Source of the DNA: Candidatus Moduliflexus flocculans
GTDB lineage: Bacteria; Moduliflexota; Moduliflexia; Moduliflexales; Moduliflexaceae
Direction: 5' to 3'
Length of the DNA stretch: 64,000 nt
Assembly (NCBI GenBank): GCA_000739515.1
Contig: DF820455.1
Location: forward strand, 1,304,712-1,368,711
The notes beneath the pieces are model-generated. The model saw only the letters and a list, made by a program, of their open reading frames with translations, did not search any database and was not told the origin of the DNA. The position numbers were made by a program, and so were the translations under genes. Below are positions 18,296-44,019 of this stretch, piece by piece (the first letter of the stretch is position 1; every line of letters begins with the position of its first letter).

Positions 18296-18314
18296 ATTTG
18301 TTCCTTATAGCGTA

Positions 18315-19528: not shown

Positions 19529-19542
19529 ATTCTATTTTTAGA

Positions 19543-19572: not shown

Positions 19573-19581
19573 GTGTTATTT

Positions 19582-21289: not shown

Positions 21290-21357
21290 GAATTCCCTCT
21301 CTGCGTTAAAACGCCCCTGCCAGGAGTCTGTCCTGACAGGGGCGGCCTGCCGCTTGC

Positions 21358-24957: not shown

Positions 24958-24989
24958 GCGTCACGTAACGCTGGGCGCAGAGAGCGAAC

Positions 24990-26390: not shown

Positions 26391-26438
26391 ATAATGTTCG
26401 ATTCATCGTTCATGAACCTTGACAGGTTATGGGCGTCA

Positions 26439-29105
26439 CTATCGCCGTCGTCCCTGTTTTTTGAGCAGCATGGCTTCAAGGGATTTCAAAACTTCTTCAC
26501 GATCAAGTTTGATCTGGTATTCATCAATGCCGACTTCGAACCCGCGCCGCCGGTCTTCTTCGCCACTGAGCGAGGTCAAGGCCATAACCGGCAAATGTTT
26601 CCATTCCGGCGTGGTTTTAATGATTTTCGTCAGTTCAAAGCCATTGCAATACGGCATATCCAAATCGGTGATGACCACATCCACATGATGCGCCGCGAGT
26701 TTTTCCTGCGCGTCGTTCCCATTAATCGCTGTAATGACGTGATAGCCAGCGGCTTCTAAATAGGATTTTTCGATATTCAGGAAAAACATCGAATCCTCGA
26801 CAATTAACACATCAAGCTTGCTGCGTTCTTCTTCGGTGATTTTGCTGACGAAAAACTTTTTATACCAGGTCGGATAGGCCAATTCGATTAATCCGTGAAT
26901 ATCAAGGATCATCACGGAATGCCCGTCAACAATTGTCGAGCCGAGAATCCCTTTCTGCTTGAACGTTTCTGTATCAATATGCGTATCAATTTCGATGGTG
27001 TTGACAATCTCGGATACGACCAGTCCAATCTGTTTTTCCACAGCAAATACAATGAGCGATAAGGTTTCCTGCGGTGGTGCGGCAGGAATATTGAAATATT
27101 GTTCCAGGCGAATGAGTGGCAAGATTTCATGCCGGTACTGCATGACTTCGCGTCCGCCGGAATATTCGATTTGCGATGCGGGAAACTCTTCCAGCCGCAC
27201 CACAAACGCTAACGGTACGCCATAATATTCATTATTCCCAACACGGAACAGCACAACCGTCTGCCGATGTTCGCGCATGTCAGTTTCACTGATGGCTTCA
27301 GCCTGTTCACCGCCCTGTTGATCGGCCTTTTTAATTTCATCCGATGACAACTGCACGGAACTGTACAATCCTGACGTGTTCAAAATCAACGAAATTCCGC
27401 CGTCTCCCATAATCGTTGCGCCATCGTAATAGGGGAGTTGCTTGATATGACTGCTTAAGGGTTTGACCACGATTTCTTCGGTATCTCCGACATCATCCAC
27501 CACTAAGCCAAAATGCAGTTCCCCAGCAGACAACACGACAATGTTGAGTAAATTATCCGTCGCGCCTTCAGGCTGAGGCAGCGCAAAAACGTCGCGCAAT
27601 CGAATAATTGGCAGGAGTTCGCCGCGCAGCCGATAGACTTCCGCGCCGTAAATGCGCTCGATAGTATGAGATTCGTCTGTGTCGGTCTGCAACATAATCA
27701 ACTCTTCCAGATTTACTTGCGGAATGGCAAACCGCTGTTTTCCGGCGGCGACAATCAGCACGGGAATAATGGCCAGCGTAATCGGCACGCGCAATTTCAT
27801 GGTCGTGCCTTTATGCAATTCGGTCTGCACATCAATCGTGCCGCCGATCCGGTCGAGATTGCGTTTCACAACGTCCATGCCCACGCCGCGCCCTGAAATC
27901 TTGGTAATCTGTTCGGCGGTTGAAAAACCTGGGCGGAAAATGAGCGTGATTAACTGCCGTTCTGTCATCTCTTCCGCTTGCTGCGGCGTCACCAAGCCTT
28001 GCTGAATCGCTTTTGCCTTGACGCGCTGCAAGTCAATCCCCGCGCCATCATCCGCGACTTCGATATGTACCAAACCGGCTTCATGAAACGCGCGAATCTG
28101 AATTTTCGCCGTCGGCGATTTTCCCAATCGTTCGCGGATATTCGGCGCTTCCACGCCATGATCAATTGAATTCCGCACCAAATGCGTCAGCGGGTCTTTA
28201 ATCGCTTCGATTAAGGTCTTGTCCAGTTCAGTCGCCTGTCCTTCCATCACAAGCTGCACGTTTTTCCCCTGCATCATCGAGAGATCACGCACTAAACGCG
28301 GGAACATGCCGAACACCTTTTTAATCGGCTGCATGCGTGTCTTCATGACCGTTTCCTGCAATTCAGTCACCACGACATTCATCCGTTGCGCAATATCGCG
28401 CAAATTCCGTTCCTCGCTTTTCGTGGAGAGCTGCATGACCTGATTGCGCGCAAGGACAAGTTCGGCGGTTAAATTCATTAATTGATCGAGCAAGGCGACA
28501 TCTACATGAATCCGGCTTTCTTCGACTGACGAGAGGGTGCGTTCGATGATTTCAGAGGCTGATTTGGTTGATATATCGCTGGCAACGGACATCGGGGATT
28601 CTTCCTGAATGCTCGATGCGTCCTGCGGTTTTAGCGGTTTCGCGATTTTAGAAAATGGCGCAGATTTTTCCGAGAGCGTTGCTTTGGCGGCTGTTCGATC
28701 TTCAGGAGCAGTGCGAATTTTTTCAGCGATAGATTTTAACGCTTTCAAGACGGGATCAACGTCATGTTCTCCTTCATGACCGGTTTTTTCAATCGTCAGC
28801 AAAATAGATTTAATTGTATCTACCGCGCTCAGCAGCACAGTCGTAATATCGGAATTCAGCCGTAGCGATCCTTCTCGCAGTTTGGAAAGCACGTCTTCGG
28901 CATAGTGTGACACTTGCTCTAACGTGACGAGACTCAGAAACCCCGCGCTCCCTTTGATGGTATGGATAATCCTGAAAATATCCGCCAATAAATCGGCATT
29001 CGACGGGTTTTGTTCAAGCGCGACAAATTCATGATCCAACCGCTCAAGATTTTCCTGCGATTCCATCACAAAGTCGCGAAGTACTCGATCTAATCCATCG
29101 TTCAT
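26439..29105 (-). CDS. cheA: Hybrid CheA histidine kinase: Hpt - dimerisation - HATPase - CheW-like (P5) - second CheW-like domain - C-terminal REC
   Basis: Hpt motif IIHTIKGSAGFL. HATPase motifs DDGAGID and GRGVGMD. Two CheW-like domains. Terminal REC (LIVEDS...TDLDMPYCNG). Confidence 0.85.
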   Translation of the reverse strand: MNDGLDRVLRDFVMESQENLERLDHEFVALEQNPSNADLLADIFRIIHTIKGSAGFLSLVTLEQVSHYAEDVLSKLREGSLRLNSDITTVLLSAVDTIKSILLTIEKTGHEGEHDVDPVLKALKSIAEKIRTAPEDRTAAKATLSEKSAPFSKIAKPLKPQDASSIQEESPMSVASDISTKSASEIIERTLSSVEESRIHVDVALLDQLMNLTAELVLARNQVMQLSTKSEERNLRDIAQRMNVVVTELQETVMKTRMQPIKKVFGMFPRLVRDLSMMQGKNVQLVMEGQATELDKTLIEAIKDPLTHLVRNSIDHGVEAPNIRERLGKSPTAKIQIRAFHEAGLVHIEVADDGAGIDLQRVKAKAIQQGLVTPQQAEEMTERQLITLIFRPGFSTAEQITKISGRGVGMDVVKRNLDRIGGTIDVQTELHKGTTMKLRVPITLAIIPVLIVAAGKQRFAIPQVNLEELIMLQTDTDESHTIERIYGAEVYRLRGELLPIIRLRDVFALPQPEGATDNLLNIVVLSAGELHFGLVVDDVGDTEEIVVKPLSSHIKQLPYYDGATIMGDGGISLILNTSGLYSSVQLSSDEIKKADQQGGEQAEAISETDMREHRQTVVLFRVGNNEYYGVPLAFVVRLEEFPASQIEYSGGREVMQYRHEILPLIRLEQYFNIPAAPPQETLSLIVFAVEKQIGLVVSEIVNTIEIDTHIDTETFKQKGILGSTIVDGHSVMILDIHGLIELAYPTWYKKFFVSKITEEERSKLDVLIVEDSMFFLNIEKSYLEAAGYHVITAINGNDAQEKLAAHHVDVVITDLDMPYCNGFELTKIIKTTPEWKHLPVMALTSLSGEEDRRRGFEVGIDEYQIKLDREEVLKSLEAMLLKKQGRRR

Positions 29106-29211
29106 GATGTTTTCTCCTCAATAAACGGCGATGAATGGGATACCATTTGCTTTTCTGAATTGGTATAGCGCATTCACAGCATTTTGTCAATGGATTGGCG
29201 CAAAAACATCG

Positions 29212-31392
29212 TTAATAGCGCTCGAAATCTTTATCATGTTCGTCTTCCGCGATGGAGGGCATCGCCGAAAAAAACGTCTCACGGTCACTTTTCAGGCGTG
29301 TATTCTTTTGGGAATCAGGCCGCGCGTCGGGCGAAATCCTGGATTTTGGCTGGCGCGGCGATGCGGCGTCTGGAATCGGCGCATCGAAAGACTCCATGGA
29401 TTCAGGGACATGGAAGAATCCGATAATCGTGCGAAGCTGTCCAGCTTGCGCCGCTAATTCTTCGGCGGTTGACGCGACTTCTTCCGACATCGCGGCGTTT
29501 TGCTGCACGATCTGATCTAATTGTTGGATGGCGCGGTTGATTTGTTCGGTTCCGGCGTTTTGTTCGCGGCTTGCCGCCGTAATTTCCTGCACAAGTTCGG
29601 AGGTTTTTTGAATATCCGGCACTAAGCGCGACAGCATATTCCCGGCTTGTTCTGCGATAGAGATGCTGTTGATGGCTAAATGATTGATTTCTTCTGACGC
29701 GGTTTGGCTTCGTTCCGCTAATGAGCGCACCTCTGCGGCGACGACCGCAAAGCCTTTGCCATGCTCTTGCGCTCGCGCGGCCTCAATCGTGGCATTGAGC
29801 GACAGAAGGCGCGTTTGGCGGGCAATGTCTTCGATAATGGAGACGCGCTTCGAAATCTCATGCATCGCAGACACCGTTTCCAGGACTGCCGCGCCGCTGG
29901 CGCGTGCGTCTTCAGCGGATTTGATTGCAAGTTTTTCGGTCTGGAGGGCATTTTCGGCATTTTGCCGGATATTCGCAGCCATTTGTTCAATGGAGGACGA
30001 GGCTTGTTCTGCGGCGGCGGCCTGCTGAGAGGCGCCTTGCGACATTGCTTGTGCGCTGGAACTCAAATTCTGGCTGCCACTTGCGACCTGAAATGCCGCT
30101 TTCTGGATGCTGATTGTCACGTCGCGTAATTTTTCAATCATCACATTGACCACCGTTTGAAATCGTCCGATTTCATCGGAGCGCGTCATGGCTATGCGGA
30201 CATCAAGGTTTCCTTCGGAAAGCTTCTCTGTCGCGGTAATCGCCTGTATAATCGGAATGCTCAGGTTTTTGGCTAAGAGAAAAATCGCCGCGAGCGCAAG
30301 CAACGCGCAGCCTGCGCTTATGCCGATTAAGACAAATGTTTTCTGCCTGCTTTCCTTGAGAAGCGCGTCTGCTTCGGCAGTAATGCGCGCGCGGGGGATA
30401 TTGATATTCACGATCCAGGGCGTTGCGCTCTGTCCGATATGAATAGGGGTAAACACTTCAAGCGCGTTCTCTAAGAGCATGACCGATTCTTCTTCGCTCT
30501 GAATGATGTTTAATAGATGGGTATGCTCGTCTTCGTGGGATTGAGCAGAATTGTTGGCTTGGTTCTCCGTGTGTTCGTGGCCGCCATGCAGCGTATCAAT
30601 CATCTGCCCAGCCAATTGCGGCTGATTTTTGGCCGCGACAATGGTGCCGTTATGGCTGAATAGGACAAACTGCGCTTCCCCTCCGTATAGATCAGGCAGC
30701 GTGTCAATCATGTGCTGCAATACCGCTAATCGCATATCCACGGTGATCACGCCGTAAAAATTGTCTTGAAATATAATCGGCGCGGTAAGGGTCGTCATGA
30801 AAATATTTTTCCCCTGCACAGGGTAAAGGTAGGGATCAATCACGCATTCGCGTTTCGTTTGTTTCGGGCAAAAGTAGTATTCTCCTTTGCCTTCGATGGC
30901 ATAATTTTCTAATGGAGCAAGCGTGATCGTGTCGTTTTCGCCACGCGACCAATATGGGATAAACCGTCCTGTTGCATCATGGCCAGGTTCATTGGCATAG
31001 CCGGAATCTAATTCGTCAAAGGCGTTTGGTTCCCAGGCGGTTCCGATGCCGACAAAATTATCATTTTCCGAGAGAACCGTTTTGAGCAGTCCATTGACCT
31101 GATCGCGATCAATTTGTAAGCCAATGTCAGGGTTTTTGATTCCTTGAAGACTCTGCGCTAATGTTCGCGCCGTATCCATCGCAGTTTCCATCTCGGCTTT
31201 GATGGCATTTGCATATTGTTGCGCTAACGTTCTGACGTAATTCTGAGTATCGCGAAGTGCTGTCTCTCTCTCAGAAAACGCCTGTTTCCGCATATCAACG
31301 ACAATATACGCGACAATCACAGTGGTCGTCAGAAGTAGGCACAACCCCATCCACGACGCAATTCTGACTTGAAGTCGTTTGTAGAATTTCAT
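29212..31392 (-). CDS. Methyl-accepting chemotaxis protein with a Cache-like periplasmic sensor and HAMP; C-terminus ...DFERY
   Basis: TM1, ~300-aa periplasmic domain, TM2, HAMP, then the MCP signalling domain (ARTLAQS...[13 protein letters not shown]). Confidence 0.85.
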
Positions 31393-31618
31393 ATCCCTCC
31401 CCCTGTTTCCCCAGGGCTGTTACGTTCTGTCATTGCGCGGAGCGTCAGCGACAAAGCAATCCCTGATCTTCGCGAGATTGCTTCGTCGTTGTCACTCCTC
31501 GCAATGACAACGTCGTGACGAGAACTTCACAACCCTGCTCTGTTTCTCTGCATAAACCGATTTGTCTCCCCTGATTCTTTCCTGTGTATGCTTTTCATGG
31601 TATGGCGTTATTCCCTTG

Positions 31619-31696
31619 CATTGAACGGGCCAAAACCTGTCAGACACCGTGAAGGTATCTGACAGGTCTGTTCAATCATCGTGCATAATGCTGTAT
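31619..31696. repeat. Repeat family 4, long form (CATTGAACGGG...CTGTCAGACACCGTGAAGGTATCTGACAG...CTGTTCAATCATCGTGCATAATGCTGTA)
   Basis: Homologous copies at 41336-41412 (same orientation) and about 46429-46512 (inverted). Confidence 0.6.
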
Positions 31697-31744
31697 GCCA
31701 CCGGCAGATATTGTCCATGAAAAAACACAACATTTTCATTTCGA

Positions 31745-32914
31745 TCATGACGCCGTTGATACCGTTGTGCGCTTGACCGAACGCGGCGGATAGGCTGGGC
31801 GCTCAAAGATAATGGCAACTTTTGTGCCTTGCGCGCTCTCGATGGTAATCTCTCCTTTTAATTGACGCACCAGCATTTTTACCAAGCGCAGCCCAAACGA
31901 GAGCGCCTGATGTTCTTCTGAAAGAATGTGCGGAAAACCGATCCCATTGTCTTTCACCTCTAATAATAACATCGCGGTGTCATACGTTTGCAACGCGATC
32001 TGAATTTCATTGGGCGGCTGGAGGGGCTGGCATTTCTGGGGAAAGGCATATTTCAAACTATTGGACATCAATTCGTTGATAATTAGCCCACATGAGATTG
32101 CTGTGTCCACATCGAGAGAAACAGGGGTGACATCAATCGCTAACGAAATGTTGGTTTTCCCATAGGATTGCAACAATGTATGCGCTAACTGCGTGATATA
32201 CGCATGCACGTCTAACTCGGCCAGGTTGCTGGATTGGTAGAGTTGTTCGTGAATATGCGCGATTGAGCGGATGCGGTTCTGCGCTTCTAAGAAAATATCA
32301 CGCGCCAGAGGGTCTTTAATATCTTCTGATTGCAAATCCAATAAACTGGAAATGACTTGTAAATTGTTTTTGACGCGATGGTGGAGTTCTCGAAGCAAGA
32401 CTTCCTTTTCTTTGAGCGATGCCTGAAGTTCTTCCTGGGTTCGCGTTCGCTCATAAATTTCATTTTTCAATTCTTGCGTCCGCTGTGCCACCAGTTCTTC
32501 AAGGCGTTCGCGGTGCTTTTGGAGTTCCAACTCATTCTGTTTGCGCTGAATAGCATTTTCAACGGTCAACGCCAATGTTTTTAAATAATTGCCTTCCTGA
32601 TCTTTGATCAAATAGTCATATGCCCCGGCTTTCATGGCTTTGACAGCGATCTCTTCGTTGCCGATGCCGGTGACAAGAATAATGGGAATGCCTGCCAAAT
32701 CATCAAAGAGATCGAAGGCCACGCCGTCTCCTAACACATAATCCACGACAGCGGCATCAACAGGCGTCGTTCGGAGCAGTTGGCGCGTCTGTTCGACTGA
32801 GCCGGCAATGACGTATTCATAGGGAAAATGTTCGCGCCTGGCAAACCGCTCGAACGCCATCTGGTCAACTTTGTCATCTTCAACAAACACAATCTTGTAA
32901 GGAGCGCATTCCAT
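31745..32914 (-). CDS. Hybrid histidine kinase: N-terminal REC, HisKA_2-type phosphoacceptor (HHRVKNNLQ) and HATPase
   Basis: REC motif IVFVEDDKVD. The HHRVKNNLQVISSLL H-box. C-terminal ATPase G-boxes. Confidence 0.8.
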   Translation of the reverse strand: MECAPYKIVFVEDDKVDQMAFERFARREHFPYEYVIAGSVEQTRQLLRTTPVDAAVVDYVLGDGVAFDLFDDLAGIPIILVTGIGNEEIAVKAMKAGAYDYLIKDQEGNYLKTLALTVENAIQRKQNELELQKHRERLEELVAQRTQELKNEIYERTRTQEELQASLKEKEVLLRELHHRVKNNLQVISSLLDLQSEDIKDPLARDIFLEAQNRIRSIAHIHEQLYQSSNLAELDVHAYITQLAHTLLQSYGKTNISLAIDVTPVSLDVDTAISCGLIINELMSNSLKYAFPQKCQPLQPPNEIQIALQTYDTAMLLLEVKDNGIGFPHILSEEHQALSFGLRLVKMLVRQLKGEITIESAQGTKVAIIFERPAYPPRSVKRTTVSTAS

Positions 32915-32917
32915 AAC

Positions 32918-33367
32918 TTATTCCTCGTCAGGCATCTCACTCAACGTCCAATAGAGATTGATCGTGCGAACGACTTCAACAAACTGCTGATAATCAACAG
33001 GTTTGATCATGTATCCGGCGACGCCTAAATCAAAGCTTTCAAACTTGTCCTGATCGTTTTTAGAAGCAGTTAGCACGACGACTGGAACTTTTTTTAACGA
33101 GGGGTCTTTTTTAATAATCTGGAGGAGTTCCAGACCATTCATTTTCGGCATATTCAGGTCTAACAGGATGATACAGGGGCGTTCTGTATTCGGCTGGTGT
33201 AAAAACTGCAATGCCTCTTCCCCGTTACCCGCCACAAACACGTCATTCGTGACGTGAATCTCCCGCAGCGACCGCTTCACAGTCATCGCATCCACTTTAT
33301 CATCTTCAACCAATAAAATAGGCTTTTTGCTATTCATCATCATAGCTCCTTCACATTGCATTGCCAA
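32918..33367 (-). CDS. Single-domain CheY-like response regulator
   Basis: 149 aa, REC only (ILLVEDDKVD...DLNMPKMNG). Confidence 0.85.
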   Translation of the reverse strand: MAMQCEGAMMMNSKKPILLVEDDKVDAMTVKRSLREIHVTNDVFVAGNGEEALQFLHQPNTERPCIILLDLNMPKMNGLELLQIIKKDPSLKKVPVVVLTASKNDQDKFESFDLGVAGYMIKPVDYQQFVEVVRTINLYWTLSEMPDEE

Positions 33368-33858
33368 ACCGCTATGCCGCCCCCCGGCATACGGGTAGGG
33401 GTATCGTTGTATGCATCCTTTTAATCTGTCTGAGCGATAGCGAACCTCAATACATGATCACGCTTCGACAACGCATTGAGGACGGCTATACTGAAAAAAT
33501 ATATCCGTTATCGCAATATTGCAAGATGGCGTCAATGAAATTCTCCATTCAATTCATGCAATGACATAAGAACGTCATTTTTATGCGCGTCGTTCTGAGA
33601 TTTTTGTGGAGATGGAAGACTTGCCAGACCGTTCACTATGTCAACCCAAACTGGCGATCACATTCGAGGTCTGATTCAATCCAGGTTCGGTCTCCATCGA
33701 AGCGAATAAAAGATTGCTCATAATTTTCGACACGTTCGCGGCTGAATTGGTTAATATTGCGTCTGGCATTTATCGCGCCGATAGTGGCGAATTGACGAAA
33801 ATTTCTGCGGTGTTCCGCGCGATTTCCTCCTGTTCGCAAATCGTCTGCGGGTTGTGTT

Positions 33859-35112
33859 TCATGAAGATTTGGGCAGAGTGAAAAAAAATTTGCTCCCCTG
33901 ATTCAGTTCGGACTCTACCCAGATAGTCCCACCATAAAGCGTAATAATCTTTTTCACAATTGCAAGCCCTAATCCAATCTGTTTATCGTTGTCATGGGTA
34001 TGCAGTGTTTGAAATAGGTGAAAAATTTTGTCGTGATATTCCGCAGGAATCCCTGCGCCGTTATCAGCCACTTCAAACTGCCAAAATCCTCCATGATCGC
34101 GACAGGCAATTGTCACCTGTCCTTGAGGGCGTCCCATAAATAAAATTGCGTTATCTATCAGGTTGCCAAACAGGGCTGACAGGTGTTCTTTCTTGCCAGA
34201 GATGACAGGGAGAGGGGTCAGGATACAACACACGATCGTCTCTGGCGGCATGAGATTTTCGAATATCTGCGGAATCAGGGCGTTCAGATCAATCGGCTTG
34301 ACTTTCTCTGGCTGCCGGACAATGCTGATGTATTCCGCGATGCCATCAAGCAGACTATTCATCCGTTTGACGCGCTGAACCAACCAGGAGAGCATTTCCT
34401 GGGCGCGCGCATCAAAGAGATGGCTATAATCATCTTTCAGCCATTGCGCCAATTGCCCGATCCCGCGCAGCGGCGTTTTCAAATCGTGCGAAACCGTCGA
34501 GATGACATTTCGAAGATCATCATTGGCCGCTTCTAATTCTGCCGTGCGTTCTCGCACACGCTGTTCGAGGCGCGCATTCATCTGGCGCACGGCCTCTTCG
34601 GCTTCTTGTCGCTGGCGAATTTCTTGCTGCAAGATTGAATTCTGTTTCTGGAGCGAGCGTTGCAGCCGACTCAGTTTTAAATGCGTGTGTACCCGCAGCA
34701 ACACTTCATCGGCCTGAAACGGTTTGGTAATGTAATCTACGCCACCGATTTGGAAGGCGTAAGCTTTGTCCTGAATATCATCTTTCGCGCTGATAAAAAT
34801 AATTGGGATATCACGAGTCCGCGCGTCATTTTTGAGTTGACGGCAAATCTCATAGCCGGAAATTTCTGGCATCATAATATCCAGCAATATCAAATCCGGC
34901 GGCTGCGTCTGTGCGCTGACGAGAGCTAAGTGTCCATGAGAAACCGGTCGCACCACATGCTGTTGGGATTTCAATATCTCCATCAACATGCGAAGATTGG
35001 CCGGAATATCATCAACGATCATGATCGCGCCGACCAATCTTTCCTGAGGGGCTGTTGCATCAACATGATTCATATCCGGGTTTGTCTTGATGATCGCGCA
35101 GACATTTGACAC
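33859..35112 (-). CDS. Hybrid histidine kinase: REC - coiled coil - HisKA - HATPase
   Basis: REC (IMIVDDIPANLRM...DIMMPEISG). H-box VSHDLKTPL. G-box GLGLAIVKKI. Confidence 0.8.
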   Translation of the reverse strand: MSNVCAIIKTNPDMNHVDATAPQERLVGAIMIVDDIPANLRMLMEILKSQQHVVRPVSHGHLALVSAQTQPPDLILLDIMMPEISGYEICRQLKNDARTRDIPIIFISAKDDIQDKAYAFQIGGVDYITKPFQADEVLLRVHTHLKLSRLQRSLQKQNSILQQEIRQRQEAEEAVRQMNARLEQRVRERTAELEAANDDLRNVISTVSHDLKTPLRGIGQLAQWLKDDYSHLFDARAQEMLSWLVQRVKRMNSLLDGIAEYISIVRQPEKVKPIDLNALIPQIFENLMPPETIVCCILTPLPVISGKKEHLSALFGNLIDNAILFMGRPQGQVTIACRDHGGFWQFEVADNGAGIPAEYHDKIFHLFQTLHTHDNDKQIGLGLAIVKKIITLYGGTIWVESELNQGSKFFFTLPKSS

Positions 35113-35145
35113 TTTCTGCGGCCTGCCTATCCATTCACGTCCCCG

Positions 35146-37161
35146 TCAGCGATTCAGCAATTTATGGATAATTCCATCCAATTTGCGCAAATTGACAGGT
35201 TTGCTCATATACTCGTTCGCGCCAGCCTCGATGCACCGTTCGCGGTCTCCAGGCATGGCAAGAGCGGTCAACGCGATAATCGCAGGGGACATGTCCGGCA
35301 GGGCGCGAATATGCTGAATCGCTTCGAGGCCCCCCATGACCGGCATCTGAATATCCATCAGAATGGCCGCAGGTCGCATCTGAATCGTTTGTTCAAGCGC
35401 CTCTTTCCCATCTTTTGCGATAGCGACGGCATAGCCTTTCAATTTGAGATACTCAGCTAACATCTCCGCATTGGTTTCATGATCGTCGGCGACAAGAATC
35501 ATCGGCGCGGTCGTCGAATTGTTCGGAGCGCTATCGTTGGCAATCCCCGGCGAGATCGTTGATTCTTCCTGAATCTGCTCTTGATGCTGAACAAGCGACG
35601 CATTGTGGACGGGCAAAGAAACCGTAAACCGGCTTCCTTTGCCGACAGTGCTTGTCACGCTGATATGCCCGCCATGCATTTCTACCATTCGGGAAACCAA
35701 CGACAGCCCTAACCCCGTTCCCGGGTGTCGGCGAGTAAATGTGCCATCTAACTGAACAAATGGCTGAAATAAGCGCTGAATATCTTCGGGCGAGATGCCA
35801 ATGCCGGTATCCCAGACAGTAAAATGCACCTGGTGATCATGTTCCGAACGGACATCGAGGCCGACCTGTCCGCCTTCTGGCGTAAATTTCACCGCATTGC
35901 TCAGCAGATTGACGAAAATTTGTTTGAGACGCCGTTCATCGGCATCAAGCGTTGGCATTGCGGCCTGAAAATCAAATGAAATGGCAATCCGTTTTTTGCT
36001 CGCCTCTTGTTTGATAAAGCGTAAACTTGCCTGACAGACGTTCTCGATATTGACCGGGGAGATCAGCAGTTCTAACTTCCCTGCGCCAATTTTGGCTAAA
36101 TCCAAAATATCGCGAATAATCGCAAGCAAATGGCGGCCACTTTCATCAATGCTGTTCAATGCATCCCGCTGTTTCTGCGTTAATGCGCCGAAAATCTCTT
36201 CTTGCAATGCCTCGGTCATGCCCAGAATTGTATGGAGCGGCGTGCGAAATTCATGGCTCATCGTGGCGAGAAATTCATCCTTCATTCGGGCAGCGCGGGC
36301 AAGTTCGGCATTGGCTTGCTGGAGTTCGGCGGTACGTTCTTCGACACGCCGGGTTAGCGATTCGCGTTCTTGCTGCAACGCTAATTCGCTTTCTTTTCGT
36401 TCGGTAATATCCTGAACCAGGCCATCGTAAGAGATCAGCACGCCTTGTTTATCGTGATGCAGCACTGACGTATTTCTTACCCAGCGCACTGCGCCGTCTT
36501 TTCGAATAATCCGATGCTCGTATGGCTCGACATTCTGCCCCTCCATCAGGCGCTCTGTGCGTTCGATCACCATCTGGCAATCCGCGTCATAGACCATTTG
36601 AATCCAAAGATGCGGATTTTTTCGAAATTCTTCTTGCGTATATCCTGTCACTGCGATACAAGTCGCGCTATGTTCTGTTGATTCTGCGCGGCCATCTTGC
36701 ACGCGCACCGTATAAATGTAATCCGTCACCGCTGCAATTAACCGACGGTAGCGCTCCTCGCTATCTTTCAACATCCGCTCCAATTGATGCCGATAAATCG
36801 CCATTTCGATGCAACTGTGTAATTCCCTGGTCTGAAATGGTTTAATCAGATAGCCAAACGGCTCAGCCAATTTCGCGCGTTGAAGTGTTTTTTCATCGGC
36901 ATAGGCGGTGAGATAGATGACCGGGACATCATACAGCAAGTGAAGATGTTTCGCGGCGTCAATGCCATCGATCTTTCCCTCAAGTTCAATATCCATCAAC
37001 ACCACATCCACCTGATATTTAAGCGCTTTTTGAATGGCTTGCTCGCCCGTGCTGACGACATCCGCAATCGCATACCCCAATCGCTCTAATTTGGTTCTGA
37101 TATTTTCAGCGACGATCACTTCGTCTTCCACAATAAGAATACTGGTCTGCGTTTGCGCCAT
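35146..37161 (-). CDS. Hybrid sensor histidine kinase: REC - PAS - HisKA - HATPase - REC
   Basis: N-terminal REC (ILIVEDEVIV...DIELEGKIDG). H-box MSHEFRTPL. ATPase motifs. C-terminal REC (ILVADDHETN...DIQMPVMGG). Confidence 0.8.
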   Translation of the reverse strand: MAQTQTSILIVEDEVIVAENIRTKLERLGYAIADVVSTGEQAIQKALKYQVDVVLMDIELEGKIDGIDAAKHLHLLYDVPVIYLTAYADEKTLQRAKLAEPFGYLIKPFQTRELHSCIEMAIYRHQLERMLKDSEERYRRLIAAVTDYIYTVRVQDGRAESTEHSATCIAVTGYTQEEFRKNPHLWIQMVYDADCQMVIERTERLMEGQNVEPYEHRIIRKDGAVRWVRNTSVLHHDKQGVLISYDGLVQDITERKESELALQQERESLTRRVEERTAELQQANAELARAARMKDEFLATMSHEFRTPLHTILGMTEALQEEIFGALTQKQRDALNSIDESGRHLLAIIRDILDLAKIGAGKLELLISPVNIENVCQASLRFIKQEASKKRIAISFDFQAAMPTLDADERRLKQIFVNLLSNAVKFTPEGGQVGLDVRSEHDHQVHFTVWDTGIGISPEDIQRLFQPFVQLDGTFTRRHPGTGLGLSLVSRMVEMHGGHISVTSTVGKGSRFTVSLPVHNASLVQHQEQIQEESTISPGIANDSAPNNSTTAPMILVADDHETNAEMLAEYLKLKGYAVAIAKDGKEALEQTIQMRPAAILMDIQMPVMGGLEAIQHIRALPDMSPAIIALTALAMPGDRERCIEAGANEYMSKPVNLRKLDGIIHKLLNR

Positions 37162-37354: not shown

Positions 37355-40300
37355 TTAATATCGCTCGAATTCCTCGTCCCGCTCATCGCCGAGCGCGAAA
37401 GGATGCCGCACAGGAATCGGCGTGTCTGCCGCGCCATTTTCAGCCCGGCTGACAGCGCGGACGATTTTTTTCGCCGCCGCCTCTTCCCGGCGTCTCTCTT
37501 TAACAGGCAAGGCGTCGTTCTCCCGTTTTCGAGGAAGATTGGAGAGGCTTTTTTCGTCTTCATATCCGATATTAAAAAAACTCATGGTGACTTGTAATTG
37601 TTCGGCTTGACTGGCCAATTCTTCCGAGGTGGACGCCACTTCTTCGGCAGTCGCCGCATTTTGCTGAATCACTTGATCCAACTGCTGAATAGCCCGATTG
37701 ATCTGTCCCGCGCCGGAATCTTGTTCTTTGCTGGCTGCGCTGATTTCCTGGACAAGTTCGGCGGTTTTTTGAATGTCCGGCACGAGGCGGGCGAGCATTT
37801 CTCCGGCATATTTCGCGATTTTGACGCTGGCGTTCGCGAGATTATTGATGTCTTCCGCGGCGGCCTGGCTGCGTTCCGCTAACGAGCGCACTTCCGCCGC
37901 CACCACCGCAAAGCCTTTGCCTTGTTCCGCCGCCTTGGCCGCCTCAATCGTAGCATTCAGCGACAACAGGCGCGTCTGGCGGGCAATATCTTCAATAATC
38001 GCAATCCGCTTCGCAATGTCTTGCATGGCAGCCACCGTATCCGCAACGGCTTTGCCGCTTTCCTGCGCGTCTGCTGCCGATTTTAACGCGATCTTGTCTG
38101 TCTGCGTGGCATTTTCCGCATTCTGACGAATATTGGCAGCCATTTCTTCCATAGATGACGACGCTTCTTCTGCCGCTGCCGCCTGTTCGGTCGTGCCTTG
38201 CGAAAGCTGCTGCGCGCTGGAACTCAATTGCTGGCTGCCGCCAGAAACGTAATTCGCCGCAAATTTGACGCTGGTCACGACATCGCGCAGTTTCCTGACC
38301 ATCGCGCCGAGCGCTCGCATCAAGCCATCGCGCTCTGAACGCGCCTCAACCTGAATCGTTAAATTCCCATTCGCCAATTCCTCGGCCATGTGCGTGATGT
38401 CCGCCATCACTTGAATCAGCACATTCAGGTTCGTTTTGATCTCGTTGAAGTCACCGAAGTAAGTCTCCTGGATTGGTTCTGGCAGGTCGCCTTTCGAGAT
38501 GCGATCCACATACGTCGCCGCGACATTTAATGGGGTAATGATCGCGTCGAGCGTGTTGTTGACGCCTTCGACGATTCGTGCAAAATCGCCGCTGAACCGC
38601 CCGACTTCGCCGCGCGTGGCAAGCTGCCCTTGCGTTGCCGCATTCGTCAGGCGGATTGCCTCCGCAACTAAGCCGTTGATGGCATCAATGCATTGATTCA
38701 GATTATTTTTAATGTCGTTAAAATCGCCGTGATACATTTCGGTGATTTTGTCTGGAATATCCCCTTTCGAAATGCGATTCACATACGCTGCCGTCAGTTG
38801 AATCGGCTTGACAAACGCATCAATCAACAGGTTAATCCCTTCAACCGTGTCGCGCCAGCCGCCGGAGAATTTAGCGAGATTGCTCCGCATCGTCAGATTT
38901 CCCTGCCGCGTTGCGTTAATCAATTCATTCGTTTCCTGGAGAATTTGATGAATGCATTGGATCATCAGGTTCAACGAACGCATCAACGTGTCATGTTCGG
39001 AACACTCGCGCGCTTCAATCTTGAGGTTGCCGCTGGCAATGGATTCAGCAATCCGCGTGGTCTCATTGGTCGCATCAATCAGGAGATTCAGATTATTGAT
39101 CATCGTCACGAAATCCCCTTGATAGGCTGAAGTGATTTTCTCTGGAATATCTCCTTTCGCAATACGATCCAGATGGGCAGCGGTAAGCGCGAAGGGTTGC
39201 GTAAACGCGTCAATTACGTTATTCACGCCGCCGATCATCTCGCACCAGCCGCCAACAAATTGACTGGCATTGCCTCGCATGGCAAGCTGCCCGGTCTGAA
39301 TGGCTTGCGTTAAGACTCCCATTTCCTTCAGCACGGCGCGGATCGTGCTTTGCATGTCGCGAAATGCTTGCGCGAGGCTGCCGATTTCATCGCTGCGGAT
39401 CAGGCGAATCTCTTTGCGGGTTTCGCCTGCCGCCAGCTCGTTCGCCAGGCCAACGATCTGCGTTAGCGGCTTCGTGATCGAGCGGCTGAAAATGCTGAAT
39501 CCCACGATCACCATCAATGCTGCGGCAATGAATGTGACCAGGCCAGTGCGCGTGGCGAATGGGATTCTTGCGGCGACGGCGGCCTGCATCTGCTGCTGTT
39601 CTTCTCGGATCGAATTTTCGAGCACATTGAGGCTCTGGCGGATCGGATCGCTATACCCATCTAATTCATCATCAATATTCACAAATTCCGCATTGATTTG
39701 CGCGGCGGCGACGGCGCTTTCTTGAATCAACCGCGCCAACGTCTCTTGCACTCCTGTGGCGAGCTTCGGAAACGTCTCGCGAATCATTCGAGCCGCCTCT
39801 TTTTCATTCTCTGTCTCAACGAATCCATCCAGTTGAGCGACGGCCAGGCGCATCGTCTGAATAGCATTCTGAATCGTTTTCAGGCGTTCCTCCTGGATGC
39901 GGCCTTCATCTTTGTCTATAATCGAATCCATCGAGGCTAACATGAGTTTAGCATGAAATTCTGCAAACGTGCTCAACAGATTGACCTGTTCACTGCGGCG
40001 CAGCAATTCCTGCGAGGCGTTGCTCACCTTCTTTTCAACCGATGTCATCAGTATCTCGAATTGTGTTTGAATCTGTTTTCCGAGATCGCCCAACGCGCCA
40101 TTTAGCGCGGCAAACGCTGCGTCATTCTGCGCGCCAGACGCCGCGCTTTCCTGAAGCAGTTTGACCAAATCGGTTAAAATGCCCTTCTCCAATTGCGGCA
40201 GCAGCGTTCTGATTTGATTGACTGACGCCTGTTCCTCGCTCGTATCCGCAAGCGCATCCAGTTGGGAGAACCGAGTTTGAATGAATTGCAAGCTGCTGGA

Positions 40301-40990
40301 AATCTGGTGCAGGCGCTGCTCGCTGATTTTGCCGGATTGTCGATCAATCATGGACTGTATGGCCTCTAACATGAGCAGATGATGCATTTGCAGACATTCT
40401 CGCAAAAAGCGAGCGTGTTGATTGAATGTTGCGGCAATATTGGCGGCAGTCTCCTGTTTTTCATGCAACGACGAGCGCAACGTAGTGATCGCCGCGTCAA
40501 TTTGAGCGCCATCCTGATCGAGTTCGTTATCAATTTGTTCGAAAGCTTTTGTAATATCCTGAAGTTGCGCCGCGCTCTGTTCGATCAAGCGCACCAAACG
40601 CTCTTGAATGCCAACTTGTAATTTGGGAAAGATATCCTCAGCTTTTTGAAAGGCGATTTTTTCCTCATCGGTATCAACAATTGCGCCCAACTCCTGAAAC
40701 CGCTGCTTCAATGCGGCGATATTTTCGGTGATGACTTTCATGCGCTCATCGCGAATGCGGCCTTCGTCTTTATCAATGACGGAATCCATTGCCGCCAATA
40801 CCAGATCAACCAGCAGCGTCCGCGCTTGAATGGCGCGCTCTAATTGGCGCTCGCGTTCAGCCATTGCCTCATTCGTCTGCCTGATGAGTTGGTTTGTTCG
40901 AAATGAAATCCCGCCCATTGCGCCTAAAATGATGATAATCATCATGCCCATAATCAACATTTTTTTGCCAATCGTCCATCTCATGTTCAT
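37355..40990 (-). CDS. Giant methyl-accepting chemotaxis protein (1211 aa): triple-repeat helical periplasmic sensor, poly-HAMP array, MCP signalling domain; C-terminus ...EEFERY
   Basis: Two TM segments bracket a ~450-aa periplasmic region holding three ~115-aa repeats. Cytoplasmic HAMP follows, then three ~78-aa HAMP-like repeats ([12 protein letters not shown]...YxGDF) and two more HAMP-like units. Confidence 0.8.
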
Positions 40991-41287
40991 TCCTCCTCAT
41001 GTTCGTTTTTCAGGGTTATCACGTGTCATGAATCGCGTTCAAACTCATCGTCACGCTCATTTCCGTTCCCATGAGACGAGGCGCGATGTACGGTTTTTTT
41101 CAAAAATGATCGCATTGTTCATTGCGATTGAACAAGAGCGCAAAAGCCATTGAATGATGCTGTATGTACCATTTATTGCACTTCGAGCGCATGTCAAGAA
41201 TCTTTTTTGCGGGGATTCGGAGAGAGGGATCGCGAGCAGCGCGCAATCCCAACGATGACACGGGATCATTCGTTTTTATGAATATGT

Positions 41288-41556: not shown

Positions 41557-44019
41557 TCAGAATCGCTCGAATTGATCGTCGTACTCGTCTGGTTCTGTCA
41601 GGTCGCTAACGCTGCGCTGAGACGGGCGTCCCCAGCTCTTCTCTCTTTGCGAGGCAACAATTTTTTTCATCATTTTGTCTGAGGGGTGCGGCCTCTCTTC
41701 AGGCTGTTCTGGCAGATCGCCATCCCAATGCTCGTCATTGACTTTGAAATAGTTCATCGCAATTTGTAGTTGGCGCGCCTGACCGGTCAACTGTTCCGCC
41801 ATAGAAGCCATTTCTTCGGCAGTCGCAGTATTTTGTTGAATGACATGATCCAATTGCTGAATCGCGTTATTAATTTGCGCGGATCCGGAGCTTTGTTCGC
41901 TGGTGGCCGCAGTGATTTCCATCACCAACTCAGATGTTTTTCGAATATCGGGAACAAGCTGCGCTAACATCTCACCCGCCACGCTGGAGACGGCAAGGCT
42001 GGATCGCGTCAATTCGTTGATTTCTTCCGCCGCGTCGTGACTGCGCTGCGCTAATGCACGCACTTCAGCAGCGACAACAGCAAAGCCCCTGCCGTGTTCC
42101 TGCGCTCTGGCCGCTTCGATTGTGGCGTTCAACGATAACAGCCGGGTTTCCTGCGCGATTTCCTCGATAATCGTAATTTTTTTGGCGATTTGCTGCATCG
42201 CCTGAACGGTCTGCGCCACGGCTTCTCCGCTCTTCTGCGCATCCGCCGCAGATTTCATCGCGATTTTTTCCGTCTGTATCGCGTTGTCCGCGCTTTGCCT
42301 GATGTTCGACGCCATTTGCTCCATTGATGCGGAAGCCTGCTCAGCGGCAGCGGATTGCTGACTTGCGCCATCCGCCACTTCCTGTGCGCTGAGGTTCATT
42401 TGCATGCTTCCATCCGCGACATTTCGCGCGGCGGCTTTGACACTGATCACAATTTCATGCAGTCGTTTCACCATCGCGTTCAACGCGATCATTAAGCGAT
42501 CATGTTCGCTGCGCTCCCGCACATCCACCGTCAAATTTCCGGCAGCGATCTCTTCCGCCATGCCAACAACATCGGTCAACGCCGCGATCATGCGATTCAG
42601 CGCACTCATGAGTCGATCCTGCTCAGAACGTTCTTTCGCCGCAACCGTCAGATTTCCGTTTGCAATCTGTTCGGCAATTGCCGAGATGTCATTCATGGCG
42701 TCAATCAGCCCGTTGACATGCTCCTGAATCTCGTTGAAATCACCAGCATACTGATGCGTGAGCCGTTCGGGAATATCGCCTCTGGCAATTCGTTTCAGGC
42801 TCTCCGCTGTCACTTGAAACGGATCCATAAACGCATCAATCATTCCATTCATCCCGACAATCAAATCCCGCCAACACCCTTGAAATTTCGCGGCGCTTCC
42901 TCGCTCATGCAGCGTTCCGGCCTGAATTGTGCGAGTCAGGCGTTCAGTTTCTCGCAGGGCTTCTTGAATGCGACTTTTCATCCCTCCCAATGCAATTGCG
43001 AGTTCGCCGATTTCGTCGCTTCGACGGACATTTAATTCGGCTTGAATATCGCCGCTCGCAATCGCTTTGGCAAACGCGACGCCTCTCACCAATGGCCGTG
43101 TTAAGTTTTTCGCCACCAGCCAGATAACGAGCGAAACGCCGCCAATCATCGCCAGGGTCAGCGCGAACACCGTCTGGCGAAGATGAGCCACCGGGCTGAA
43201 CATATCGTTCATGTCCGCGCCGACTGCCACTGTCCAACCCGTTAATGGAACTTGCGATAGATAGACCTGTTTAGGATTCCCTTTCCAGACATAGGTGAAC
43301 AAGCCTTCGTGAGCCGCCAGCAAATCCTGTCCAAATTCGAAATCGGTGATTTTCTGGTCTAAAATTCGCTCTTTTTCAGGGTGGGAAATAAATGTTCCAT
43401 CCTTTTCCAGCATATACGCATAGCCTTTTTCACCGATGTGAATCGGAGCAATAAATTTATCGGTGACGGAATTTAAGCTGATGGAGACCAAAAAAACGCC
43501 GATGACACGTTCCTCCGACAACACTGGCGCAGAACACGCAAGCACAGGCTCGCCAGTCGTCCGGCTGCGAATTACCGACGAGATCGCGACTTTCCCCGCC
43601 AGGCTTTCCTGGAAATACGCGCGGTCATCATACCGGGCGGTTCCGACATTTTCCGCTGTCGAAGACGCAAGCGTCATGCCGTCAAGATTGACGATATTCG
43701 CTACCACATATTGATAGCGCTCTTTCAGTCTTTTCAACGCCAGATTCGCGGTTTGAATCCCTTGCCAGTCATTTGGATTTTTCAGTACATTGACGGTGAT
43801 ATTCCGCTCGCTTTGCTGTAGGACATCGAGCTGTAGGTTGCGCAGCCATTCTTCGATTTGCCCGGCAAGCCGTTCACTGGCCTGCTCCATTTCGCGCGTA
43901 ATTTCTGTCTGTAACGCCGATCTGGCCGACGTGTACGCCACAAACATAATCACGCCCGCCCCGATAATGATCGTGCTGAGTGTCGGGATAAAAAATCGGT
44001 TAAATACATTCCATCGCAT
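41557..44019 (-). CDS. Methyl-accepting chemotaxis protein with a dCache-like sensor, multiple HAMP-like repeats and the MCP signalling domain; C-terminus ...DQFERF
   Basis: TM1, ~280-aa periplasmic domain, TM2, HAMP, one 78-aa repeat, two HAMP-like units, then the signalling domain ([13 protein letters not shown]). Confidence 0.85.

What the first reader, a model, noticed from the sequence alone, without database searches (positions are those of the whole stretch)
37355..40990. 1211-aa chemoreceptor with a triplicated periplasmic helical module and a poly-HAMP array
The periplasmic region (roughly 39670-40870) contains three tandem ~115-aa repeats: ...[20 protein letters not shown]..., ...[20 protein letters not shown]..., ...[20 protein letters not shown].... 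The cytoplasmic part has a canonical HAMP, then three ~78-aa repeats with the signature RI(S/A)KGD(I/L)PExI...Y(H/Q/F)GDF, then two more HAMP-like units, and only then the methylation/signalling domain. The neighbouring 820-aa MCP (41557-44019) carries one copy of the same 78-aa repeat. The result is an unusually long signal-conversion rod with an undefined sensor type.
Basis: seen in the sequence. Interest (0 to 1): 0.65.

Follow-up and report, generated by a model that had tools for sequence, protein, structure and literature searches.

The report
Chemoreceptor with three-tier helical sensor tower
This is a real, very long bacterial chemoreceptor whose outer sensor is predicted to be a tower of three stacked four-helix bundles, built from a repeat unit that is in no domain library, and whose inner part is a chain of up to nine known HAMP relay domains; the ligand is unknown.

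Summary
The ORF is real: 37355-40990, minus strand, GAK49904.1 of Candidatus Moduliflexus flocculans. It is a transmembrane methyl-accepting chemotaxis protein in a che gene cluster.

The periplasmic triplication is confirmed, but the period is 143 aa, not ~115 (29-38% identity, z about 24-26). The repeats are old, so this is not an assembly artefact.

The repeat unit passes no Pfam threshold and matches no solved structure by sequence. It defines a small family (510 representatives among 1.84 billion proteins) with 1-6 tandem copies per receptor.

AlphaFold2 (pLDDT 87) predicts very long continuous helices with one break, in the middle repeat. Helix-length arithmetic closes at the membrane only as a three-tier stack ordered R1 (proximal), R3, R2 (apex). 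The only significant Foldseek hit is McpZ, described in 2025 as the first tri-modular sensor structure. A two-repeat relative models as an HBM/TorS-like two-tier domain.

The middle repeat here keeps 1 of 7 signature acidic residues.

The cytoplasmic "78-aa repeats" are known di-HAMP modules (Pfam HAMP_2, matching the AskA poly-HAMP crystal structures). I count up to nine HAMPs.

Verdict: a new variant of known kinds. The ligand is unknown. Interest is moderate.

The parts
37355..40990 (-). Whole MCP gene (1211-aa ORF; the likely start is the ATG at 40984, giving 1209 aa = GAK49904.1)
40901..40963 (-). TM1 (about aa 10-30)
   Evidence: hydropathy scan; part of helix 7-75 in the AF2 model
40475..40897 (-). 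Periplasmic module R1 (aa 32-172). Signature [13 protein letters not shown] ... F..IDNELD..G, with 6 of 7 acidic signature residues. Predicted membrane-proximal tier.
40046..40468 (-). Periplasmic module R2 (aa 175-315). Degenerate signature ([12 protein letters not shown] ... F..LNGALG..G), with 1 of 7 acidic residues. Predicted apex tier.
40124..40135 (-). SGAQ (aa 286-289): the only break inside the long helices of the model; inferred apex turn of the tower
   Evidence: junction-variant pattern in relatives
39617..40039 (-). Periplasmic module R3 (aa 318-458). Full signature (7 of 7). Predicted middle tier; its last helix runs into TM2.
39491..39565 (-). TM2 (about aa 476-500)
   Evidence: inside helix 394-520
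39338..39490 (-). HAMP 1, canonical (aa 501-551)
   Evidence: PF00672 at 42.8-68.8 bits
39071..39334 (-). di-HAMP 1 (aa 553-640): B-type unit plus A-type unit (RIAKGDIPE)
   Evidence: HAMP_2 at 89.9 bits; per-unit scan; homology to AskA poly-HAMP
38942..39070 (-). HAMP-like unit C1 (aa 641-683)
   Evidence: sub-threshold only: HAMP_2 13.4 bits, E 0.078; pattern ..A.GNL...(E/V).AR..E.D.L matches unit C2 and two units of the neighbouring MCP (sequence)
38678..38941 (-). di-HAMP 2 (aa 684-771; RISKGDIPD)
   Evidence: HAMP_2 at 112.5 bits; aligned to 9trk/9trj
38405..38677 (-). di-HAMP 3 (aa 772-862; RISKGDLPE)
   Evidence: HAMP_2 at 109.1 bits
38276..38404 (-). HAMP-like unit C2 (aa 863-905)
   Evidence: PF00672 at 16.2 bits, E 0.013, sub-threshold
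37541..38275 (-). Methylation/signalling hairpin (aa 906 to about 1150). Four methylation-consensus sites at aa 916, 937, 1085 and 1112; tip motif [19 protein letters not shown] at aa 1000.
   Evidence: PF00015 at 93.6 bits
37358..37372 (-). C-terminal pentapeptide EFERY at the end of a tail of about 60 aa
   Evidence: the same (D/E)FE(R/K)(Y/F) ending is seen in many relatives and as QFERF in the neighbouring MCP
41557..44019 (-). Neighbouring MCP (GAK49905.1): dCache_1, HAMP, one di-HAMP (HAMP_2) and two HAMP-like units, then MCPsignal
23881..37161 (-). Rest of the chemosensory cluster on the same strand: three REC/histidine-kinase hybrids, a third MCP (PDC sensor), CheA-CheW-REC, a CheR-CheD fusion and CheB

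Best explanation
The gene encodes a transmembrane methyl-accepting chemoreceptor of the non-flagellated, gliding filament Candidatus Moduliflexus flocculans.

Sensor. The periplasmic sensor is three tandem copies of a 143-aa helical module from a small family that is in no domain library and is at most a remote relative of 4HB_MCP. The copies are not three separate beads. They are predicted to unfold into two long limbs that run up from TM1 and back down to TM2. Each limb carries short return hairpins. Wherever a hairpin meets the opposite limb, a four-helix node forms. This gives a tower of about 200 Å with three tiers, ordered R1 (membrane-proximal), R3 (middle) and R2 (apex).

Acidic sites (inferred). 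By helix-length arithmetic, each node brings together the conserved loop D-x3-D-K-D-E-G of one module and the F-x3-D-D-x2-D-x2-G stretch of a module on the other limb. For R1 and R3 these partners are exchanged. R2 pairs with itself. That would place a cluster of up to seven carboxylates at each node.

Signalling (inferred). I infer that a ligand, possibly cationic, binds at the two nodes that keep this signature. The apex node has lost it and would serve as a structural cap. Binding would displace the last helix, which is continuous with TM2, relative to TM1. The signal would then pass through one canonical HAMP, three di-HAMP modules and two further HAMP-like units (up to nine HAMPs) to a standard signalling hairpin. 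That hairpin has methylation sites and a C-terminal EFERY tether for CheR/CheB, and it controls the CheA-CheW-REC kinase of the same cluster.

Status of each step. Shown: the repeats, the domain content, the family and its copy-number range, the predicted helix layout, the fold matches and the gene context. Inferred: the tier order, the composite acidic sites, any ligand, and the direction and mode of signalling.
For: Repeats: period 143 aa, z 24-26; each copy scores 148-161 bits to the family profile.

Family: 510 representatives among 1.84e9 proteins, with 1-6 tandem copies.

Model of aa 1-560 (17-sequence alignment, pLDDT 87.1, pTM 0.57): helices 7-75, 81-104, 108-215, 224-247, 251-285|290-361, 367-387 and 394-520. 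The rise is 45-24+108-24+35 = 140 residues and the descent is 72-21+82 = 133 residues. The chain therefore returns to the membrane only if 286-289 is the apex turn.

Independent sequence support: relatives carry a short, Pro/Gly-containing alpha3-alpha4 junction (S) or a long one (L) in positions that fit this geometry. Singles are S in 77 of 89. Doubles are LL with a Gly/Pro linker in 77 of 88. Triples are LSL in 18 and LLL in 9. One five-copy protein is LLSLL.

A two-copy relative models with the predicted six-helix layout, which closes at 45-24+74-32+22-89 = -4. It aligns over 206 of 236 residues with the McpS HBM domain and over 206-210 residues with TorS.

Acidic signature: 6, 1 and 7 of 7 in R1, R2 and R3. 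Single-copy proteins average 6.5 and none has 3 or fewer. In multi-copy proteins 12-29% of modules are degenerate.

Cytoplasmic part: HAMP, HAMP_2 x3 and MCPsignal; alignment to AskA poly-HAMP crystal structures 9trk/9trj, E 4e-18; di-HAMP concept from PMC13446029; methylation sites and tip motif.

Context: CheA-CheW-REC, CheR-CheD and CheB on the same strand. The organism lacks flagella, glides and has more than 60 MCPs (PMC4312070).
Against: - I could not inspect coordinates. The tier order and the swapped acidic sites rest on helix lengths, not on measured contacts.
- The model is a monomer built from a shallow alignment of 17 sequences, with pTM only 0.57. The real receptor should be a dimer.
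- The structural match to McpZ is moderate (TM-score 0.42 by target, rmsd 10.5 Å).
- A co-degeneration test of the proposed loop/alpha4 pairings gave mixed results. In triples, R1 loop with R3 alpha4 (rho 0.70) and R2 with R2 (0.71) fit, but R3 loop correlates better with its own alpha4 (0.68) than with that of R1 (0.45). In doubles nothing is discriminated.
- No ligand evidence exists. The acidic residues could equally be helix caps or inter-helix salt bridges.
- Units C1 and C2 are below Pfam thresholds, so the count of nine HAMPs is an upper estimate.
- No conserved neighbour besides che genes points to a ligand.
Confidence: 0.7

Rival explanations
1. The three modules fold as three independent four-helix bundles lying side by side (beads on a string) between TM1 and TM2, not as one stacked tower.
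For: Each module resembles a complete single-copy sensor of about 550-aa relatives. Some multi-copy relatives from Planctomycetota do have Gly/Pro-rich linkers between modules.
Confidence: 0.1
2. The tower does not bind a small ligand itself. It is either a docking platform for a ligand-loaded periplasmic binding protein, as TorS is for TorT, or a spacer that places a contact site deep in the periplasm near the peptidoglycan or outer membrane.
For: TorS, a stacked-bundle sensor that works through TorT, is among the best structural matches. A tower of about 140 helical residues (about 200 Å) is tall for a periplasm (inference). A sugar ABC transporter with its binding protein and a GH31 glucosidase lie next to the che cluster, and the organism glides toward maltose and glucose.
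Against: No binding-protein gene recurs next to family members in 80 loci; only che genes recur. The strong conservation of a defined acidic signature in single-copy members (6.5 of 7) looks more like a small-ligand or ion site. Adjacency to the sugar locus may be coincidental.
Confidence: 0.2
3. The repeats are an assembly artefact, i.e. collapsed or mis-joined paralogous MCP genes.
For: The genome was binned from a metagenome. Repeats are a known cause of mis-assembly.
Against: The repeats share only 29-38% protein identity and 62-78% identity over short DNA stretches. The frame is uninterrupted. A 95%-identical protein of the same length occurs in an independent assembly. An unrelated metagenome holds a protein (P0024, 47% identical over the full length) with the same architecture of three modules and three di-HAMPs.
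Confidence: 0.01

Closest known systems
McpZ periplasmic domain of Sinorhizobium meliloti (PDB 8F7N; Salar et al. 2023, Proteins 91:1394). [quoted passage not shown]
   Different: No sequence similarity is detectable: phmmer and the profile search of the PDB list nothing for 8f7n at E up to 10, and structural alignment gives 10-14% identity. The structural overlap is moderate (TM 0.42). The sensor here is an obvious triple sequence repeat, about 80 aa longer, from a family with 1-6 copies found in Desulfobacterota, Planctomycetota, Alphaproteobacteria and Moduliflexus. From my memory of the abstract, McpZ's fold was reported to have arisen within Rhizobiaceae; the paper is not held in the library.
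HBM (helical bimodular) domain of McpS (PDB 2YFA; Pfam PF16591) and the TorS sensor domain (3I9W/3O1H)
   Same: Both are stacked four-helix bundles formed by long helices that run through several tiers plus short return helices. The two-copy relative of this family aligns over 206 of 236 McpS residues and 206-210 TorS residues. The window model aligns over 245 TorS residues. In McpS both tiers bind ligands (PMC11804620).
   Different: There is no Pfam HBM hit at E up to 1. The window sensor has three tiers, not two, and a clear internal sequence repeat.
4HB_MCP_1 (PF12729), single four-helix-bundle chemoreceptor sensors (e.g. PcaY_PP 6S18, MCP2201 9KUP, Vc1313 8BSA)
   Different: The scores are below the curated cut-off (23.5 bits for the whole protein and 13-14 bits per module, against 27). 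The family has its own signature ([13 protein letters not shown]; F..IDD.LD..G) and is concatenated up to six times.
Poly-HAMP and multi-HAMP arrays built from di-HAMP modules (Aer2; AskA 9TRK/9TRJ; Dunin-Horkawicz & Lupas 2010; Coles et al. 2026, PMC13446029)
   Same: There are alternating canonical-like and divergent HAMP units. The array aligns to the AskA crystal structures at E 4e-18 and to Aer2 at E 0.003. Pfam HAMP_2 is found three times. Relatives differ in the number of di-HAMP units.
   Different: Coles et al. describe soluble receptors with long arrays of nearly identical di-HAMPs. Here the receptor is transmembrane, the three di-HAMPs are diverged and are interrupted by other HAMP-like units, which fits their 'multi-HAMP' class better.

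Membership tests
Methyl-accepting chemotaxis protein | MCP signalling domain (PF00015) above the curated cut-off, with a conserved hairpin tip | tested here: met
   93.6 bits against a cut-off of 34.6; tip motif [19 protein letters not shown] at aa 1000
Methyl-accepting chemotaxis protein | Methylation-site consensus and the adaptation enzymes CheR and CheB available | tested here: met
   Four consensus sites; CheR-CheD and CheB in the cluster; C-terminal EFERY pentapeptide. Methylation itself was not tested.
HAMP (PF00672) | Profile match above the cut-off directly after TM2 | tested here: met
   aa 501-551; 68.8 bits for the whole protein and 42.8 bits for the unit alone, against a cut-off of 25
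HAMP_2 (PF18947) | Profile match above the cut-off | tested here: met
   Three stretches, 281 bits in total, 90-112 bits each, against a cut-off of 24.3
Poly-HAMP array sensu Coles et al. 2026 | Repeating di-HAMP modules of one canonical and one divergent HAMP | tested here: met
   Three B-A pairs; aligned to AskA 9trk/9trj over two consecutive HAMPs
Poly-HAMP array sensu Coles et al. 2026 | Long, uninterrupted array of highly similar di-HAMPs in a soluble receptor | tested here: not met
   The receptor is transmembrane. There are only three di-HAMPs, interrupted by unit C1. The DNA copies are 62-75% identical. It fits their 'multi-HAMP' description.
4HB_MCP_1 (PF12729) | Profile match above the gathering score | tested here: not met
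   23.5 bits for the whole protein and 13-14 bits per module, against a cut-off of 27. Four of 15 family modules match at E below 0.1.
4HB_MCP_1 (PF12729) | Antiparallel four-helix-bundle fold | tested here: met
HBM (PF16591) | Profile match | tested here: not met
   No hit at E up to 1-10 on the whole protein or on the sensor alone
HBM (PF16591) | Two stacked four-helix bundles made from six helices | tested here: inconclusive
   The two-copy relative has this layout and aligns with McpS over 206 of 236 residues. The window protein has three tiers.
McpZ-type helical tri-modular sensor | Three stacked four-helix-bundle tiers between TM1 and TM2 | tested here: met
McpZ-type helical tri-modular sensor | Sequence homology to McpZ | tested here: not met
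   No match to 8f7n with phmmer or with the family profile at E up to 10
McpZ-type helical tri-modular sensor | Restriction to Rhizobiaceae, as reported by Salar et al. (recalled from the abstract; paper not held) | tested here: not met
   The source is Candidatus Moduliflexus. Multi-copy relatives are in Desulfobacterota and Planctomycetota.

The most novel reading that the evidence does not exclude
The 143-aa unit is a concatenable sensor repeat, a periplasmic counterpart of poly-HAMP. Adding copies adds four-helix tiers, and a simple grammar decides where the chain turns back: a short turn-type or long helical alpha3-alpha4 junction, and Gly/Pro or helical linkers between modules. Receptors with 1 to 6 copies would then form towers of graded height, up to more than 300 Å for the LLSLL five-copy form. 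That height could reach the peptidoglycan or outer membrane. Each tier would carry a composite acidic site assembled from two different repeats. This would be a new sensor-domain superfamily with a tunable number of binding sites and tunable reach.
Probability: 0.3. Interest if true: 0.7.

Novelty: new variant of a known kind. Interest (0 to 1): 0.5.

Why it matters
Multi-tier helical sensors are barely explored. A 2025 paper (PMC11804620) describes the 2023 McpZ structure as the first tri-modular sensor structure, and its ligand and mechanism are still unknown.

This family offers a natural series of 1, 2, 3, 4, 5 and 6 tiers built from one recognisable repeat. The series has intact and degenerate sites in known positions. 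That makes three questions directly testable:
- how signals from several stacked sites are combined;
- how far a piston or scissor movement can travel along a tower of about 200 Å;
- how such sensors evolve by internal duplication.

The window protein pairs the tower with one of the longest HAMP relays among transmembrane family members: only 4 of about 240 family proteins combine three modules with three di-HAMPs. It is therefore an extreme test case for long-range signal conduction on both sides of the membrane.

It belongs to a filamentous bacterium that causes bulking in anaerobic wastewater reactors and has no flagella. The output is therefore not flagellar rotation.

Tried and rejected
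- Self-BLAST of the protein returned only the identity hit. Segment-wise alignment was needed.
- Word-indexed homologue searches were insensitive: 12 hits, then 3 hits. The exhaustive profile search recovered the family.
- Exact look-ups of the ORF in assemblies failed with both start codons. The cluster look-up identified the source.
- Pfam, NCBIfam and PDB sequence searches gave no family for the sensor.
- The afdb50 fold library was not available. Model coordinates are not exposed, so I could not measure contacts, tower height or the acidic clusters.
- The McpZ paper is not in the library. What I say about its content beyond the title and the citation in PMC11804620 is from memory.
- The co-degeneration test of swapped against self pairing of the two signature halves was mixed for triples and uninformative for doubles.
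- Neighbourhood clustering of 80 loci found only che genes and kinases as recurrent neighbours, with no ligand clue.
- Assembly artefact was rejected.
- An EF-hand-like reading of DKDEG was considered. The loop is one residue shorter than the EF-hand consensus and nothing supports the reading, so it stays a speculation.
Full report
**1. Observation**

The minus-strand ORF 37355-40990 is intact and encodes 1211 aa. From its third residue it is identical to GAK49904.1 / UniRef A0A0S6VRN9, annotated 'methyl-accepting chemotaxis sensory transducer' of Candidatus Moduliflexus flocculans, 1209 aa. The GGAGGA ribosome-binding site lies 8-9 nt before the second ATG at 40984, so the shorter form is the likelier product.

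Two hydrophobic segments (about aa 10-30 and 476-500) bracket a periplasmic region of about 445 aa. The period is therefore 143 aa, not ~115. Pairwise alignments of the three segments give 29-38% identity with z-scores of 23.7-26.3 against shuffled sequence.

At the DNA level only short stretches of 62-78% identity remain. An independent assembly holds a 95%-identical protein of the same length. A protein 47% identical over its full length and with the same overall architecture (P0024) comes from another metagenome. The triplication is therefore real and old, not an assembly collapse.

**2. Cytoplasmic part**

Pfam finds HAMP (PF00672, aa 501-551), HAMP_2 (PF18947, three stretches, 281 bits) and MCPsignal. 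When I scanned the units one by one, the model turned out to cover the second helix of one HAMP plus a complete divergent HAMP.

The region aligns at E = 4e-18 to the crystal structures of the AskA poly-HAMP array (9trk, 9trj), over two consecutive HAMP domains per repeat. It aligns weakly to Aer2. [quoted passage not shown]

The layout is as follows:

| Unit | Residues | Support |
|---|---|---|
| HAMP1 | 501-551 | above Pfam cut-off |
| di-HAMP 1 | 553-640 | HAMP_2 above cut-off |
| HAMP-like C1 | 641-683 | 13.4 bits, sub-threshold |
| di-HAMP 2 | 684-771 | HAMP_2 above cut-off |
| di-HAMP 3 | 772-862 | HAMP_2 above cut-off |
| HAMP-like C2 | 863-905 | 16.2 bits, sub-threshold |

This gives up to nine HAMPs, of which two are sub-threshold. 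The motif spacings of 130 and 91 aa follow from this order.

After the HAMPs comes a normal signalling hairpin with four methylation-consensus sites and the conserved tip. It is followed by a tail of about 60 aa ending in EFERY. The neighbouring MCP ends in QFERF, and many relatives end in (D/E)FE(R/K)(Y/F). This resembles the aromatic pentapeptide that tethers CheR and CheB in other receptors (established knowledge; binding not tested here).

**3. Periplasmic module and its family**

No Pfam or NCBIfam model passes its cut-off on the sensor. 4HB_MCP_1 reaches 23.5 bits on the whole protein and 13-14 bits on single modules, against a cut-off of 27. HBM and TarH do not appear. No solved structure matches by sequence, with either the protein or the family profile.

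A first homologue search found receptors with one or two copies of the unit. From these I built a 143-position profile (A1). An exhaustive search of 1.84 billion cluster representatives found only 510 proteins (394 at E ≤ 1e-10).

The number of tandem copies per protein ranges from 1 to 6. Single copies dominate in Alphaproteobacteria. Forms with two to four copies occur in Desulfobacterota and Planctomycetota.

The signature is [13 protein letters not shown] at the end of the first helix and F-x3-DD-x2-D-x2-G about 80 residues later.

**4. Predicted structure**

AlphaFold2 on aa 1-560 with a 17-sequence alignment of three-copy relatives gave pLDDT 87.1 and pTM 0.57 (above 90 through most of the sensor). 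The helices are 7-75, 81-104, 108-215, 224-247, 251-285|290-361, 367-387 and 394-520.

The module boundaries are not breaks. Helices of 108-127 residues run across them. The only interruption of a long helix is SGAQ at 286-289, in the middle module.

Counting residues along the axis:
- The chain rises 45-24+108-24+35 = 140 residues to that point.
- It descends 72-21+82 = 133 residues to TM2.
- It therefore returns to the membrane only if 286-289 is the apex.

In that geometry each short return hairpin, together with the passing helix of the opposite limb, gives a four-helix node. The nodes lie at heights of about 21-45 residues (R1), 68-89 (R3) and 105-140 (R2).

I could not inspect coordinates, so this tier order is an inference. 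It is supported in three ways.

(b) The family shows a junction grammar that fits the geometry. The alpha3-alpha4 junction is either short and rich in Pro/Gly/Asp (S, a turn) or five residues longer (L, helical). The counts are in the table below. The turn sits where the geometry needs it. In the window protein the middle module is L-length but carries the Ser-Gly kink.

| Copies | Dominant pattern | Count |
|---|---|---|
| 1 | S | 77 of 89 |
| 2 | LL with a Gly/Pro linker between modules | 77 of 88 |
| 3 | LSL (LLL in 9 others) | 18 |
| 5 | LLSLL | 1 protein |

(c) A two-copy relative (P0002) was modelled as a test (pLDDT 87.8, pTM 0.66). It shows the expected six helices with the turn in the inter-module linker, and it closes at 45-24+74-32+22-89 = -4. 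It aligns over 206 of 236 residues of the McpS HBM domain and 206-210 residues of TorS.

The family thus yields a four-helix bundle with one copy, an HBM/TorS-like two-tier domain with two copies, and a McpZ-like three-tier tower with three.

**5. Acidic signature**

By the same arithmetic, the F-x3-DD-x2-D stretch of R3 (aa 436-447) lies beside the DKDEG loop of R1. That of R1 (150-161) lies beside the loop of R3. That of R2 lies beside its own loop. The two halves of the signature would therefore meet at every node.

The window protein keeps 6 of 7 signature acidic residues in R1 and 7 of 7 in R3, but only 1 of 7 in R2. Both halves of R2 are lost together. The 95%-identical variant shows the same.

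Single-copy receptors average 6.5 of 7 and are never degenerate. In multi-copy receptors 12-29% of modules are degenerate. In several Phycisphaerae proteins the central module has decayed beyond detection.

A correlation test of the proposed pairings was only partly supportive. In triples, R1 loop with R3 alpha4 gave rho 0.70 and R2 with R2 gave 0.71. But R3 loop with R1 alpha4 gave 0.45, against 0.68 for R3 with itself. Doubles gave no discrimination.

What binds there is unknown. A cationic ligand or metal ion is a reasonable guess, but helix capping or salt bridges are not excluded.

**6. Context**

The gene lies in a same-strand cluster:
- the dCache MCP;
- this MCP;
- three REC/histidine-kinase hybrids;
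- a PDC-type MCP;
- CheA-CheW-REC;
- a CheR-CheD fusion;
- CheB.

A third of family loci elsewhere also sit beside che genes, and no other neighbour recurs. The organism has no flagellar genes, glides toward glucose or maltose, and encodes more than 60 MCPs (PMC4312070). The output is therefore probably gliding or another cellular function.

A sugar ABC transporter and a GH31 glucosidase follow the cluster. This may be coincidental.

**7. Comparison and novelty**

The cytoplasmic relay is a known kind. By the definitions of PMC13446029 it fits 'multi-HAMP' better than 'poly-HAMP'.

The sensor works like the HBM, TorS and McpZ class of stacked helical sensors. It is not a member of the HBM or 4HB_MCP_1 families by their profiles, and it shows no sequence relation to McpZ.

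PMC11804620 (2025) cites McpZ as the first trimodular sensor structure. I found no description of a repeat family with 1-6 stackable copies in the held literature. That is not proof of absence.

I rate the finding as a new variant of a known kind with moderate interest (0.5). The protein is an extreme but interpretable receptor. The wider value lies in the modular family that it led to.

Noticed in passing
window 24990-26390 (-): A single ORF fuses CheR (N-terminal and SAM-binding domains) to CheD. The adjacent CheA (26439-29105) carries CheW-like domains and a C-terminal receiver.
   Followed up: no
window 31745-37161 (-): Three receiver/histidine-kinase hybrids (one with PAS, one with HisKA_2) lie between the MCP genes and cheA. 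This suggests the chemosensory pathway feeds a phosphorelay rather than a flagellar motor.
   Followed up: no
window 37358-37372 and 41560-41574 (-): Both MCPs end in an aromatic pentapeptide (EFERY, QFERF). Many relatives of the sensor family end in (D/E)FE(R/K)(Y/F). This is probably a CheR/CheB tether of unusual sequence.
   Followed up: partly
window 41026-41115 (-): A 29-aa intergenic ORF ends in ...NERDDEFERDS, resembling the MCP C-terminal tails ([11 protein letters not shown]). The DNA is 71% identical over 28 nt. It may be a relic of a lost or rearranged MCP 3' end.
   Followed up: no
window 41352-41384: A perfect palindrome with a 15-bp stem and 3-nt loop lies between the two MCP genes, about 170 nt after the stop of the upstream one. 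It could be a terminator or a repeat element.
   Followed up: no
window 40984-40990: The Shine-Dalgarno sequence GGAGGA fits the second ATG. The protein is probably 1209 aa, as in GenBank, rather than 1211 aa.
   Followed up: yes
window 15845-22644 (-): A sugar-type ABC transporter (SBP_bac_1 plus two permeases) and a GH31 alpha-glucosidase lie directly downstream of the che cluster. The organism is reported to glide toward maltose and glucose.
   Followed up: partly
P0046, P0054, P0055, P0065, P0076, P0077, P0084; loci L017, L032, L036: In these Phycisphaerae-type relatives two recognisable modules are separated by about 130 aa. A central third module appears to have decayed beyond profile detection, which parallels the degenerate middle module of the window protein.
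   Followed up: partly
P0016, P0039, P0056, P0083 (1357-1409 aa): These relatives have five or six modules. After TM2 they also carry a long Glu/Arg/Lys-rich low-complexity stretch between two HAMP-like regions, an architecture different from the di-HAMP type.
   Followed up: no
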